Positions 32,569 through 32,711 of a DNA stretch of 64,000 bases are shown here, piece after piece. The stretch spans positions 21,190 through 85,189 of the forward strand of contig JANQSS010000144.1 of NCBI GenBank assembly GCA_028279185.1, in the 5' to 3' direction. The translations under genes and the position numbers were made by a program. This stretch comes from Saprospiraceae bacterium (GTDB lineage: Bacteria > Bacteroidota > Bacteroidia > Chitinophagales > Saprospiraceae). Each line of letters opens with the position of its first letter. Position 1 is the stretch's first letter. A model generated the notes under the pieces. It made no database searches. It was not told the DNA's origin and saw only the letters and a list, made by a program, of their open reading frames with translations.

Positions 32569-32602
32569 CCAAGTGTCGCCGGTTCGAATCCGGCTTTCGT
32601 CA
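32569..32602 (+). tRNA. tRNA 3' half-gene: (anticodon-stem 3' strand CCAAG), variable TGTC, T-arm GCCGG-TTCGAAT-CCGGC, acceptor 3' strand TTTCGTC, discriminator A
   Basis: Canonical T-loop TTCGAAT. No upstream 5' acceptor, D-arm or anticodon arm could be found. The acceptor strand is perfectly complementary (7 of 7) to GACGAAA located 4 nt downstream. Confidence 0.4.
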
Positions 32603-32605
32603 AGG

Positions 32606-32643
32606 GACGAAATAGCTCAGTTGGTTAGAGCATTGGATCTGAA
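32606..32643 (+). tRNA. tRNA 5' half-gene: acceptor 5' strand GACGAAA, U8 A9, D-arm GCTC-AGTTGGTTA-GAGC, anticodon-stem 5' strand plus loop (ATTGG-ATCTGAA; CUG/Gln reading, tentative)
   Basis: Textbook D-arm with GG in the loop. No complementary 3' anticodon-stem strand follows; the next bases are the T-arm of a different tRNA. Pairs with the upstream half (32569..32602), not with anything downstream. Confidence 0.4.
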
Positions 32644-32668
32644 GCGGGTTCGATTCCCGTCTAGTTTT
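32644..32668 (+). tRNA. tRNA-Asn 3' half-gene: T-arm GCGGG-TTCGATT-CCCGT, acceptor 3' strand CTAGTTT, discriminator T
   Basis: Canonical T-arm. The acceptor strand pairs with GCACTAG beginning 2 nt downstream: 5 Watson-Crick pairs, 1 G-U and 1 mismatch. Confidence 0.4.
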
Positions 32669-32669
32669 C

Positions 32670-32711
32670 GCACTAGTAGCTCAATGGTAGAGCGCTTGAT
32701 TGTTAATCAAG
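32670..32711 (+). tRNA. tRNA-Asn(GUU) 5' half-gene: acceptor 5' strand GCACTAG, U8 A9, D-arm GCTC-AATGGTA-GAGC, complete anticodon arm CTTGA-TTGTTAA-TCAAG
   Basis: Canonical anticodon loop with U33, GUU at 34-36 and A37. No T-arm or 3' acceptor within 300 nt downstream. Its partner 3' half lies immediately upstream. Confidence 0.45.

What the first reader, a model, noticed from the sequence alone, without database searches (positions are those of the whole stretch)
32569..32711. Two tandem tRNA genes whose halves appear in circularly permuted order (3' half upstream of 5' half)
The element order is T-arm + 3' acceptor | 5' acceptor + D-arm + anticodon | T-arm + 3' acceptor | 5' acceptor + D-arm + anticodon arm(GUU). 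In the conventional reading (5' half then the next T-arm) neither acceptor stem pairs. In the permuted reading they do. TTTCGTC at 32595-32601 is a perfect 7 of 7 complement to GACGAAA at 32606-32612 across a 4-nt AAGG linker. CTAGTTT at 32661-32667 pairs 6 of 7 with GCACTAG at 32670-32676 (5 Watson-Crick, 1 G-U, 1 mismatch). All D-arms, T-arms and the Asn anticodon arm are canonical (U8 A9, GG in the D-loop, TTCGAAT/TTCGATT T-loops, U33). This argues against random decay. The second unit is an unambiguous tRNA-Asn(GUU) with its breakpoint in the variable region. The first unit has its breakpoint at the anticodon-loop/stem boundary; a CUG (Gln) reading is tentative because position 26 and the 27-43 pair are irregular. 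Permuted tRNA genes are established only in a red alga, a few green algae and one archaeon. A bacterial case would be new. An alternative is a scar of serial integrase or rearrangement events at tRNA genes.
Basis: seen in the sequence. Interest (0 to 1): 0.85.

Follow-up and report, generated by a model that had tools for sequence, protein, structure and literature searches.

The report
tRNA-shaped decoy modules before RtcB operon
The two "scrambled tRNA genes" are real, but they are tRNA-shaped modules with sealed acceptor stems inside a roughly 515-base conserved RNA that sits just upstream of a slipin–RtcB RNA-repair operon in Bacteroidota, a kind of tRNA mimic already described or predicted in bacteria rather than the first bacterial permuted tRNA genes.

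Summary
At 32569-32711 the order is T-arm, 3' acceptor strand, short loop, 5' acceptor strand, D-arm, twice over. Only the "permuted" reading pairs.

The interpretation as novel bacterial permuted tRNA genes is not supported.
- The same arrangement lies 350-700 nt upstream of slipin (Band-7/SPFH) genes, usually followed by RtcB, in about 75 of 80 Bacteroidota genomes sampled.
- Covariation supports a T-arm, a closed 5-7 bp acceptor hairpin, a D-arm and even the tertiary 15:48 pair.
- Covariance models built only from other genomes hit unit 1 at 71 bits (E 5.5e-22) and unit 2 at 59.5 bits (E 3.3e-13).
- Rfam aligns unit 1 to the tRNA-like core of YrlA (Y RNA-like) and to nothing else of that family. 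No Ro/Rsr gene is in the window.
- Unit 1 never has an anticodon loop. The "anticodon" of the last unit differs between orthologous loci.

The units are embedded in a conserved RNA of about 515 nt, with a 5' domain, a pseudoknot and a long-range helix ending 67 nt before the slipin start.

This matches the closed-acceptor tRNA mimics of YrlA and the unvalidated "Band-7-associated tRNA" prediction of Burroughs and Aravind (2016). Function is inferred, not shown.

The parts
32478..32545 (+). Conserved 5' domain of the RNA. It holds hairpin P1 (about 32487-32510, core GUGUU/AGCAC) and hairpin P2 (about 32508-32541), then the conserved AUGCUGC block.
   Evidence: nhmmer finds this block directly upstream of the first tRNA-like module in 52 sources. 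RNAalifold predicts P1 and P2 with compensatory changes: GC, AU, CG and UA at the middle pair of P1, and UA/CG and CG/UA/AU in P2. No Rfam family matches it.
32567..32639 (+). tRNA-like module 1. Closing stem CCAA 32569-72 / UUGG 32633-36; variable-loop-like GUGUC 32573-77; T-arm 32578-94; closed acceptor hairpin 32595-32612 (7 bp, loop AAGG); U8 A9 32613-14; D-arm 32615-31. It has no anticodon loop.
   Evidence: Model R1, built from 39 other genomes, scores 71 bits, E 5.5e-22, full length. Rfam YrlA scores 40.7 bits on model positions 23-88 only. On alignment A3, 95% of cells pair against 45-50% in slid controls, and 17 of 20 pairs show compensatory change. The 15:48 pair is G32620:C32577, and that pair covaries in A3.
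32639..32715 (+). tRNA-like module 2. T-arm 32644-60; closed acceptor hairpin 32661-76 (5 bp CTAGT/ACTAG, loop TTTCGC); U8 A9 32677-78; D-arm 32679-93; anticodon-like arm 32695-32711 (loop UUGUUAA). The chain enters and leaves at the variable-loop position.
   Evidence: Model R2, built from 30 modules of other genomes, scores 59.5 bits, E 3.3e-13, full length. On alignment A4, 95.8% of cells pair against 30-44% in slid controls, and 18 of 20 pairs show compensatory change. ARAGORN calls the hand-joined sequence tRNA-Asn(gtt).
32720..32744 (+). Pseudoknot-like element. GAAG 32720-23 pairs with CUUC 32731-34. ATCA 32727-30, inside that loop, pairs with UGAU 32741-44 after the A-run UAAAAA 32735-40.
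   Evidence: The block is conserved in the full-length alignment. Stem 1 is predicted by RNAalifold. Stem 2 differs in sequence but stays complementary across loci, for example UGGCUGU/ACAGCCA, UGAUCG/CGAUCG, GCCCG/CGGGC and CACCG/UGGUG. The window coordinates were read by eye, because the script picked the wrong site in the window.
32753..32993 (+). 3' domain closed by a long-range helix, GAAAGUAC 32753-60 with GUGCUUUC 32986-93. It encloses the conserved GGAUACCG block (32853-60) and a U-run (32880-84). The helix ends 67 nt before the slipin ATG.
   Evidence: RNAalifold predicts the helix on 50 sequences. In a duplex test of cognate against non-cognate partners, energies are -30.3 against -21.1 kcal/mol, and the cognate partner beats at least 90% of non-cognates in 26 of 40 loci. 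An uninterrupted helix of 7 bp or more, with varying sequence beyond GAAAG/CUUUC, is found in 28 of 50 loci and ends 29-105 nt before the ATG.
33061..34158 (+). Slipin (SPFH/Band-7) protein gene, 365 aa. No N-terminal hydrophobic segment is evident in the translation.
   Evidence: Pfam Band_7, E 4.5e-29. Matches to solved stomatin structures. Orthologues of 47-57% identity across Bacteroidota, named 'slipin family protein' by their sources. Translation.
34169..35635 (+). RtcB RNA ligase gene, 488 aa, 10 nt after the slipin stop codon.
   Evidence: Pfam RtcB, E 3.8e-84. An RtcB homologue of more than 47% identity lies downstream of slipin in about 35 of the 80 related loci.

Best explanation
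The two units are not tRNA genes. They are two tandem tRNA-shaped modules of one conserved structured RNA, about 32478-32993 on the + strand, that lies immediately upstream of a slipin (Band-7/SPFH)-RtcB operon in a Bacteroidota chromosome.

Anatomy (shown):
- Each module has a T-arm, an acceptor-like stem sealed by a 3-6 nt loop, U8 with A9 or G9, and a D-arm.
- Module 1 is closed by its own 4-5 bp stem, as in the tRNA-like domain of YrlA.
- Module 2 carries a complete anticodon-like stem-loop and joins the rest of the RNA at the variable-loop position.
- The sealed acceptor means there is no 3' end to aminoacylate, so the modules copy the shape of tRNA and not its decoding function.
- The RNA is linked to slipin genes across the phylum.

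Identity (inferred from the literature): the RNA corresponds to the tRNA-like partner predicted for Band-7/RtcB repair systems.

Mechanism (inferred, not shown):
- The RNA is transcribed together with slipin-rtcB.
- Its tRNA-shaped modules dock proteins that recognise tRNA. Candidates are the RtcB ligase, the slipin scaffold, tRNA-modifying or processing enzymes, and possibly tRNA-cleaving toxins.
- It would then act as scaffold or decoy for repair of damaged tRNA, much as a Y RNA tethers Ro to its effector.
For: Structure:
- RNAalifold on 43 orthologous regions predicts the permuted cloverleaf without any prior.
- On A3, 95% of cells pair, 17 of 20 pairs show compensatory change, and 0 of 500 shuffles reach the observed score.
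- On A4, 95.8% of cells pair and 18 of 20 pairs show compensatory change.
- The tertiary 15:48 pair covaries: C:G 14 and U:A 14 of 30, and C:G 31 and U:A 5 of 39.
- U33 of the anticodon-like loop is invariant in A4.

Membership of the window's units:
- R1 gives 71 bits and R2 gives 59.5 bits, from models that never saw the window.

Link to YrlA:
- Rfam aligns the modules of the window and of 7 other loci to YrlA model positions of about 20-89 at 35-47 bits.

Link to slipin and RtcB:
- 66 of 80 slipin loci have an R1 hit of at least 55 bits just upstream of slipin, and most of the rest have weaker hits. The four loci with no hit have under 460 nt of upstream sequence or none.
- RtcB follows slipin in about half of the loci and in the window.

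One larger RNA:
- Conserved blocks and the long-range helix.
- In many loci only about 30-45 nt separate the last helix from the slipin ATG, which leaves no room for a separate promoter.

Literature:
[quoted passage not shown] Both statements are in bioRxiv 10.1101/312249.
- YrlA is modified by TruB and DusA, and the M. smegmatis form is cut by RNase P (PMC4201824).
- In Anabaena, rtcB, a slipin gene and a tRNA operon share a translational-stress regulon (PMC10272220).
Against: - No expression, processing or binding data exist for this RNA. Wang et al. state that the Band-7-associated RNA has not been validated.
- I could not read Burroughs and Aravind 2016. The equation with their 'b7a-tRNA' therefore rests on a second-hand description, which calls it strongly tRNA-like and does not mention a closed acceptor or flanking domains.
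- RtcB is absent from the 4-5 kb downstream of slipin in roughly a third of loci, so the firm partner is slipin, not RtcB.
- The window's own promoter and 3' end are not identified.
- A U-run inside the 3' domain could be a terminator, which would make the RNA a separate transcript.
- Module 1 here has a full 7-bp acceptor stem. [quoted passage not shown]
- In module 2 of the window the 15:48 position is A:A, not a standard pair.
Confidence: 0.8

Rival explanations
1. Cis-acting sensor. The RNA is mainly a long 5' leader that controls slipin-rtcB expression. Its tRNA-shaped modules are bait for whatever damages or processes tRNA, such as anticodon nucleases or RNase P. Cleavage or binding of the bait would rearrange the 3' domain, whose last helix lies close to the slipin start, and switch the repair genes on. 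This would stand in for the RtcR/CARF sensor used by enterobacteria. It differs from the best explanation in mechanism, not in anatomy.
For: - The RNA is on the same strand as slipin and directly abuts it. Its last conserved helix ends 29-105 nt before the ATG, often about 35 nt.
- The long-range helix covaries.
- The last module keeps a canonical 7-nt anticodon-like loop with invariant U33, while the triplet varies. Many of the triplets belong to tRNAs known, from my own knowledge, as targets of anticodon nucleases: GUN for colicin E5, UUU for PrrC, and NCG for colicin D.
- No RtcR-type regulator is near the operon.
- In Salmonella the rtc operon is induced by damaged tRNAs (PMC10159003).
Against: - There is no evidence of alternative, mutually exclusive structures, and no terminator or anti-terminator pair was found.
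- The helix does not cover the start codon.
- The spacing to the ATG is variable.
- The link to nuclease targets is a recollection applied to a small sample, not a test.
Confidence: 0.3
2. True permuted tRNA genes. The primary transcript is cut in the variable region. The ends are ligated, conceivably by the adjacent RtcB, into a circle. RNase P and a 3' nuclease then open the acceptor loop, CCA is added, and a functional tRNA-Asn(GUU) results.
For: - Joined halves of unit 2 are called tRNA-Asn(gtt) by ARAGORN.
- All four arms, U8, U33 and the GG/TTCGA elbow are canonical.
- An RNA ligase of the tRNA-splicing type is encoded 1.5 kb downstream.
- M. smegmatis YrlA shows that a closed acceptor of 7 bp can be opened by RNase P and receive CCA.
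Against: - Unit 1 and all its orthologues lack an anticodon loop.
- Acceptor hairpins total 14-20 nt, and positions 6 and 7 are often mismatched. About a third cannot hold 7 bp plus a discriminator.
- The anticodon is not conserved between orthologous loci.
- Modules with a Leu-type D-arm lack the long variable arm.
- No covarying helix flanks the proposed cut sites, and bacteria have no known bulge-helix-bulge endonuclease (the latter from my own knowledge).
- The units are covalently embedded in a larger conserved RNA.
Confidence: 0.04
3. A canonical Ro/Rsr-binding Y RNA (YrlA proper). The tRNA-like domain would be the effector module of an Rsr ribonucleoprotein.
For: Rfam's best non-tRNA match is YrlA, at E 4.3e-07. 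YrlA and Rsr are often encoded next to RtcB.
Against: - The score of 40.7 bits is below the gathering score of 69.
- Only model positions 23-88 align. The two strands of the Rsr-binding stem (positions 1-22 and 89-114) never align, in the window or in 7 other loci.
- No TROVE-domain protein is among all ORFs of at least 330 aa in the window.
- The conserved GNCGAAN0-1G motif of YrlA is not conserved in the 5' domain (read from the alignment).
Confidence: 0.05
4. Decayed remnants of a tRNA gene array, or scars of serial integrase or rearrangement events at tRNA genes, with no function.
For: Many related loci carry long arrays of genuine tRNA genes just upstream. The modules plausibly originated from tandem tRNA genes.
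Against: - The arrangement is conserved in register across families of Bacteroidota whose slipin proteins are only about 50% identical.
- There are abundant compensatory changes in every helix and in a tertiary pair.
- No integrase is nearby.
Confidence: 0.01

Closest known systems
YrlA (Y RNA-like A; Rfam RF02553), the tRNA-mimicking bacterial Y RNA of Salmonella, Mycobacterium and others
   Same: - The element order is the same: a closing or 'anticodon' stem, variable region, T-arm, acceptor stem sealed by a loop, then D-arm.
- The same conserved tRNA nucleotides and a covarying 15:48 pair.
- Frequent genomic linkage to RtcB.
- The literature describes it as resembling a circularly permuted tRNA with a closed acceptor stem.
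   Different: - There is no Rsr/Ro gene nearby and no Rsr-binding stem. The partner gene is a slipin.
- One to three modules occur in tandem instead of one.
- The last module has a full anticodon-like arm.
- The modules are embedded in an RNA of about 515 nt with its own 5' domain, pseudoknot and long-range 3' domain.
- Scores fall below Rfam's gathering threshold.
[quoted passage not shown]
   Same: A predicted non-coding tRNA-like RNA encoded next to a Band-7 domain protein and RtcB. This is exactly the gene neighbourhood found here.
   Different: I could not read the original paper. The summary says it 'strongly resembles an authentic tRNA' and has not been validated. Whether the closed acceptor, the tandem modules and the flanking conserved domains were described there is unknown to me.
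Circularly permuted tRNA genes of Cyanidioschyzon merolae, some green algae and an archaeon (review PMC3978253, listed)
   Same: The 3' half (T-arm and 3' acceptor strand) is encoded upstream of the 5' half. The hand-joined halves fold as a cloverleaf.
   Different: Those genes yield decoding tRNAs. They pass through a circular intermediate made by the bulge-helix-bulge splicing endonuclease and a ligase, followed by RNase P and tRNase Z cleavage (my own knowledge of that literature). Here one unit has no anticodon loop, the acceptor is a short closed hairpin, the anticodon is not conserved, and the units are domains of a bigger RNA.
Two-piece (permuted) tmRNA genes of alphaproteobacteria and some cyanobacteria (my own knowledge)
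   Same: This is a bacterial precedent for a tRNA-like RNA whose gene is circularly permuted, with the 3' acceptor piece encoded upstream of the 5' piece.
   Different: tmRNA is cut into two pieces that pair to form an open, aminoacylatable acceptor stem, and it carries a tag reading frame. ARAGORN finds no tmRNA in the window.
GOLLD and other large ornate bacterial RNAs that embed or adjoin tRNAs
   Same: A large conserved multi-domain RNA containing tRNA-like sequence. A GOLLD-like RNA with an embedded tRNA-like segment happens to lie in the same window, at 10853-11391.
   Different: The slipin-linked RNA has no sequence or structure match to GOLLD, ROOL or any other Rfam family. In GOLLD the embedded tRNA has conventional order.

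Membership tests
Circularly permuted tRNA gene (functional, decoding) | The 3' half is encoded upstream of the 5' half, and the acceptor strands are complementary across the linker. | tested here: met
   Sequence reading. Permuted covariance models hit at 71 and 59.5 bits.
Circularly permuted tRNA gene (functional, decoding) | Joined halves give a complete cloverleaf with an anticodon loop. | tested here: inconclusive
   Unit 2 meets this: ARAGORN calls it tRNA-Asn(gtt) once 5 nt of variable region are included. Unit 1 does not: its 'loop' is created by the join, and in the native chain and in 39 orthologues the stem continues into other RNA.
Circularly permuted tRNA gene (functional, decoding) | A 7-bp acceptor stem plus a discriminator, able to be opened and CCA-tailed. 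| tested here: not met
   Across 61 modules the element is 14-20 nt in total. Position 6 is mismatched in 25% and position 7 in 36%. About a third are 14-16 nt. In the window, unit 1 would qualify (7 bp plus 4 nt), while unit 2 is 5 bp plus 6 nt.
Circularly permuted tRNA gene (functional, decoding) | Stable tRNA identity (anticodon) across orthologous genes. | tested here: not met
   At least 14 different triplets appear at the same position in orthologous loci.
Circularly permuted tRNA gene (functional, decoding) | A processing signal at the termini (bulge-helix-bulge) and a circular intermediate. | not testable with these tools
   RNAalifold predicted no covarying helix flanking the modules. 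Circular RNA can only be shown by RNA sequencing.
Circularly permuted tRNA gene (functional, decoding) | The gene supplies an isoacceptor otherwise missing from the genome. | not testable with these tools
   Only 64 kb of the genome is available. The exact-protein look-up found no source contig.
YrlA / bacterial Y RNA (Rfam RF02553) | A tRNA-like domain with T-arm, closed acceptor stem-loop and D-arm, bounded by a stem. | tested here: met
   Aligned to model positions 23-88, E 4.3e-07. The same holds in 7 other loci. Covariation.
YrlA / bacterial Y RNA (Rfam RF02553) | A score at or above Rfam's gathering threshold (69 bits). | tested here: not met
   40.7 bits in the window and 35-47 bits in 7 other loci. 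No YrlA hit at gathering level in 16 loci.
YrlA / bacterial Y RNA (Rfam RF02553) | An Rsr/Ro60-binding stem formed by the 5' and 3' ends (GNCGAAN0-1G motif). | tested here: not met
   Model positions 1-22 and 89-114 never align. The motif is not conserved in the 5' domain alignment.
YrlA / bacterial Y RNA (Rfam RF02553) | Encoded near an rsr (TROVE domain) gene. | tested here: not met
   No TROVE hit among all window ORFs of at least 330 aa. The rest of the genome is not available.
Band-7-associated tRNA-like RNA (b7a-tRNA, predicted 2016) | Encoded next to a Band-7/SPFH domain protein gene. | tested here: met
   The slipin gene starts 67 nt after the RNA's last helix. The same linkage holds in about 75 of 80 loci.
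Band-7-associated tRNA-like RNA (b7a-tRNA, predicted 2016) | An RtcB ligase gene in the same neighbourhood. | tested here: met
   RtcB at 34169-35635. It is also present downstream of slipin in about half of the related loci.
Band-7-associated tRNA-like RNA (b7a-tRNA, predicted 2016) | Sequence and structure as defined by the original authors. | not testable with these tools
   The paper is not held and no model of it exists in Rfam 15.

The most novel reading that the evidence does not exclude
The slipin-linked RNA would be an undescribed class of large, multi-domain bacterial RNA of about 400-600 nt. It has a 5' domain, one to three tRNA mimics, an A-rich pseudoknot and a long-range-closed 3' domain, and it is conserved across Bacteroidota. 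On this reading it works as an RNA-based sensor or decoy for tRNA-targeting nucleases. Its tRNA-shaped baits, which display variable anticodon loops, would be cut or bound during attack, and this event would switch on or recruit the adjacent slipin-RtcB repair machinery. It would be an RNA counterpart of the protein sensor RtcR. The published record I could reach describes only a 'tRNA-like' prediction, and Rfam 15 has no model for it.
Probability: 0.2. Interest if true: 0.75.

Novelty: new member of a known kind. Interest (0 to 1): 0.45.

Why it matters
- It removes a tempting false positive. This is not the first bacterial permuted tRNA gene. Annotation pipelines may also mislabel the site, because the Rfam tRNA model just passes its threshold at 32674-32736.
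- It gives comparative support for a predicted RNA partner of Band-7/RtcB repair systems that has never been validated. That support comprises covariation in every helix and in a tertiary pair, and two covariance models.
- It shows that this partner is much larger and more elaborate than a single tRNA-like unit.
- How bacteria other than enterobacteria sense tRNA damage and deploy RtcB is an open question, as is what soluble SPFH proteins do. This RNA offers a concrete handle for experiments on both.

Tried and rejected
- Phage origin: blastn of 31500-34000 against phage records found nothing. The window looks like a Bacteroidota chromosome, given a T9SS sorting domain, TonB-type receptors and ECF sigma factors.
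- Literature: Burroughs and Aravind 2016 could not be read by DOI or PMC id. Searches for 'b7a-tRNA', for RtcB with slipin, and for RtcB with tRNA-like and Bacteroidetes found no description of the large RNA.
- A 5'-to-middle closing stem: by eye I proposed one (GGCCUGA with UCAGGCC in the window). The cognate versus non-cognate test did not support it, with a median rank of 0.46, so I dropped it.
- Hammerhead reading of 'CUGAUGAG' in the 5' domain: rejected. The motif is not conserved across loci, no GAAA follows stem II, and Rfam gives no ribozyme hit.
- Terminator scan: it flagged 32644-32660, which is simply the T-arm of module 2.
- Pseudoknot script: my regular expression mislocated the pseudoknot in the window and missed it in about 14 loci. 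The window coordinates were read by hand.
- Low-scoring R1 and R2 hits inside genuine tRNA arrays are junctions between adjacent real tRNAs, not modules.
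Full report
**1. The observation**

- Unit 1:
  - T-arm GCCGG/TTCGAAT/CCGGC at 32578-94.
  - TTTCGTC (32595-601) and GACGAAA (32606-12) pair 7 of 7 across the loop AAGG.
  - UA at 32613-14.
  - D-arm GCTC/AGTTGGTTA/GAGC at 32615-31.
- Unit 2:
  - T-arm at 32644-60.
  - CTAGTTT against GCACTAG gives 5 Watson-Crick pairs, 1 G-U and 1 mismatch.
  - UA at 32677-78, and a D-arm at 32679-93.
  - A perfect 5-bp/7-nt anticodon-like arm with loop UUGUUAA at 32695-711.

Conventional tools behave as predicted:

- ARAGORN calls nothing here.
- The Rfam tRNA model gives 24.7 bits for the conventional reading.
- A marginal 31.6 bits at 32674-32736 uses downstream sequence as a false T-arm.
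- When the halves are joined by hand, ARAGORN calls tRNA-Asn(gtt) for unit 2 and 'tRNA-Gln(ctg)' for unit 1.

The latter loop is an artefact of the join. In the native chain CCAA (32569-72) and UUGG (32633-36) form a closing stem.

**2. First lead**

A permissive Rfam scan aligned 32570-32638 to YrlA, the tRNA-mimicking bacterial Y RNA. The score was 40.7 bits (E 4.3e-07), but only model positions 23-88 aligned. Those positions are the T-arm, a closed acceptor hairpin, the D-arm and the bounding stem.

The genes downstream on the same strand are:

- a slipin (Band-7/SPFH) protein at 33061-34158;
- ten bases after its stop, an RtcB RNA ligase at 34169-35635.

Upstream are a TPR protein, an ECF sigma factor with a 500-aa partner, and a LytTR response regulator. 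No TROVE/Ro protein is encoded by any ORF of at least 330 aa in the window.

**3. Relatives**

The slipin protein has thousands of homologues. The closest are 47-57% identical and come from many families of Bacteroidota. Using an alignment of 24 of them (A1) I fetched 80 genomic loci.

- In most of them a T-loop, short hairpin and D-arm pattern sits 350-700 nt upstream of slipin.
- An RtcB homologue follows slipin in about half.
- Printing the upstream regions showed that the conservation is not limited to the tRNA-like units. A series of conserved blocks runs from about 100 nt before the first unit to a few tens of bases before the slipin start codon.

**4. Structure of the units**

*Module 1.* RNAalifold on 43 orthologous regions (A2) predicted four helices with no prior: a 4-bp closing stem, a T-arm, an acceptor hairpin and a D-arm. 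Compensatory changes occurred in 26 of 35 predicted pairs.

On a trimmed alignment of module 1 from 39 genomes, without the window (A3), the results were:

| Measure | Value |
|---|---|
| Cells forming a standard pair | 95% |
| Same, with partners slid | 45-50% |
| Pairs with changes on both sides | 17 of 20 |
| Shuffles reaching the observed score | 0 of 500 |

*Last module.* I made the same measurement on 30 'last' modules that carry an anticodon-like arm (A4). It gave 95.8% paired against 30-44% when slid, and 18 of 20 pairs with compensatory change.

*Tertiary pair.* The base just before the T-stem (position 48) covaries with D-loop position 15. The counts are C:G 14 and U:A 14 of 30 in A4, and C:G 31 and U:A 5 of 39 in A3. 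This is the Levitt pair, so the modules very probably fold into the L-shape of tRNA.

*The window's units.* Covariance models built from A3 and A4 (R1 and R2) then hit the window, which they had never seen.

| Unit | Coordinates | Score | E-value |
|---|---|---|---|
| Unit 1 | 32567-32639 | 71 bits | 5.5e-22 |
| Unit 2 | 32639-32715 | 59.5 bits | 3.3e-13 |

Both hits are full length. The two units are therefore orthologues of two conserved module types.

**5. Why they are mimics and not tRNA genes**

- Module 1 never has an anticodon loop.
- Across 61 modules the stretch between the T-arm and U8 is 14-20 nt, with a median of 17. Pairs 1-5 are almost always formed, but position 6 is mismatched in 25% and position 7 in 36%. 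These are closed 5-7 bp hairpins with 3-6 nt loops. About a third are too short for 7 bp plus a discriminator.
- The anticodon-like loop of the last module keeps tRNA-like features. It has 7 nt, U33 is invariant, and position 37 is usually a purine. The triplet, however, differs between orthologous loci. It is GUU here, and elsewhere GAA, UUU, GUG, GUA, UAG, UAU, CAU, CAG, UCG, ACG, GUC, AGG or UUG.
- Modules with a Leu-type D-arm lack a long variable arm.
- Rfam aligns the modules of seven other loci to the same YrlA core at 35-47 bits, and never to the Rsr-binding arms.

**6. The larger RNA**

From 5' to 3' in the window:

- a 5' domain with two covarying hairpins, 32478-32545;
- module 1;
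- module 2;
- a pseudoknot-like element, 32720-32744;
- a 3' domain closed by the helix GAAAGUAC (32753-60) with GUGCUUUC (32986-93).

In the pseudoknot-like element GAAG (32720-23) pairs with CUUC (32731-34). The enclosed AUCA pairs with UGAU after the run UAAAAA. The second stem differs in sequence but stays complementary in other loci.

The long-range helix is supported in three ways:

- RNAalifold predicts it.
- Cognate partners are more stable than non-cognate ones, -30.3 against -21.1 kcal/mol. The cognate partner beats at least 90% of non-cognates in 26 of 40 loci.
- Varied helix sequences occur in 28 of 50 loci.

The helix ends 29-105 nt before the slipin ATG, often about 35 nt and 67 nt in the window. 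That leaves little room for a separate promoter, so I infer co-transcription with slipin. This has not been shown.

R1 hits of at least 55 bits lie just upstream of slipin in 66 of 80 loci. Most of the rest have weaker hits, and the four with no hit lack upstream sequence.

**7. What is known**

- Chen et al. 2014 (PMC4201824) described YrlA RNAs near rsr in more than 250 bacteria. [quoted passage not shown]
- Wang et al. 2018 (bioRxiv 10.1101/312249) solved the structure of the domain. [quoted passage not shown]
- The same paper reports that in other bacteria RtcB is encoded next to a Band-7 protein and a predicted 'band 7-associated tRNA' (Burroughs and Aravind 2016), which has not been validated. 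I could not obtain that 2016 paper.
- In Anabaena, rtcB, a slipin gene and a 26-gene tRNA operon belong to one translational-stress regulon (PMC10272220). This fits the clustering of tRNA arrays, this RNA, slipin and RtcB that I saw in several Bacteroidota loci.

**8. Mechanism**

*Shown:* the tRNA-like fold with a sealed acceptor, the embedding in a larger conserved RNA, and the linkage to slipin and often to RtcB.

*Inferred:* the RNA is made together with slipin-rtcB. Its modules present the tRNA elbow, and in the last module an anticodon arm, to proteins that recognise tRNA. It would act as scaffold or decoy for the repair system, by analogy with Y RNA and Ro.

A cis-regulatory 'damage sensor' role is a serious alternative that the data do not separate from this. 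True permuted-tRNA maturation, perhaps using RtcB, is not formally excluded for unit 2 but is contradicted by the comparative data. A canonical Rsr-binding Y RNA and a decayed tRNA scar are both contradicted.

**9. Verdict**

The thing is a new member of a known kind: closed-acceptor tRNA mimics of RNA-repair loci, either YrlA-like or the predicted Band-7-associated RNA.

The surrounding architecture of about 515 nt and the tandem modules are not in Rfam 15 and not in any paper I could search. That is the part that may be new.

Noticed in passing
window 10853-11391 (+), with 10933-10995 inside it and tRNA-Lys at 10363-10435: A GOLLD-like large RNA (Rfam RF02032) scores 127 bits, E 1e-34, over the full model length but below the gathering score of 150. 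A tRNA-like sequence is embedded in its variable insert (tRNA model 42.8 bits, positions 5-66, odd loop CAACUAA, acceptor ends not matched). A genuine tRNA-Lys(UUU) lies about 420 nt upstream. The window therefore holds a second, unrelated large RNA containing a tRNA-like element.
   Followed up: partly
window 11936-11970 (-): A DUF805b RNA motif (RF02914, 36.7 bits, just above the gathering score) lies upstream of the small ORF 11532-11915 (-), which has no Pfam match.
   Followed up: no
L071 18-1582; L026 856-2358; L039 2280-3231 and 5159-6634; L009 989-1500; L002 2665-3023: In several other Bacteroidota, long arrays of genuine tRNA genes (up to about 15) lie directly upstream of the slipin-linked RNA, and sometimes downstream of slipin. 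They include matches to the tRNA-Sec model (L026 936-1021, L071 1181-1267). The window has no such array. This is reminiscent of the stress-induced tRNA operon of Anabaena.
   Followed up: partly
L001 about 3370-3425, L006, L008, L009, L011, L012, L069 (upstream of the 5' domain): A further conserved block, 'AAAAAUCUUC - hairpin - GAAGCGCGGAAAA', precedes the 5' domain in many loci. It is not recognisable in the window, so the RNA may start further upstream in those genomes.
   Followed up: no
window 32853-32860 and 32880-32884: A strongly conserved GGAUACCG block is followed by a weak hairpin and a U-run inside the 3' domain. This could be an internal terminator or attenuator, or a protein-binding site. 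It is unexplained.
   Followed up: no
window 33061-34158 (+): The slipin protein shows no N-terminal hydrophobic hairpin in its translation. It has about 135 residues before the Pfam Band_7 match that look like a second, partial SPFH beta segment. It may therefore be a soluble, ring- or cage-forming SPFH protein. No transmembrane prediction was run.
   Followed up: partly
L026 3780-3882 (+); L044 5132-5207 (-): Flavo-1 RNA motifs (RF01705) occur next to the slipin gene in two Flavobacteriaceae loci. In one of them the motif lies between the tRNA-like RNA and slipin.
   Followed up: no
Modules in L005, L007, L015, L017, L023, L029, L051, L054-L056, L063, L068, L070: A second module subtype has U8-G9 and a D-arm GCGG/AAUUGGUAA/ACGC typical of class II (Leu/Ser/Tyr-type) tRNAs, but no long variable arm. 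Different modules seem to copy different tRNA classes.
   Followed up: partly
window 32434-32449 (+): A perfect hairpin, UCAUUGC-AC-GCAAUGA, lies immediately after the stop codon of the TPR gene (31876-32433) and about 30 nt before the conserved 5' domain. It has no U-run, so whether it ends the upstream transcript is unclear.
   Followed up: no
window 4792-8076 (-): A 1094-aa protein combines TPR repeats with a C-terminal CHAT protease domain, an architecture common in conflict and signalling systems. It appears unrelated to the finding.
   Followed up: no
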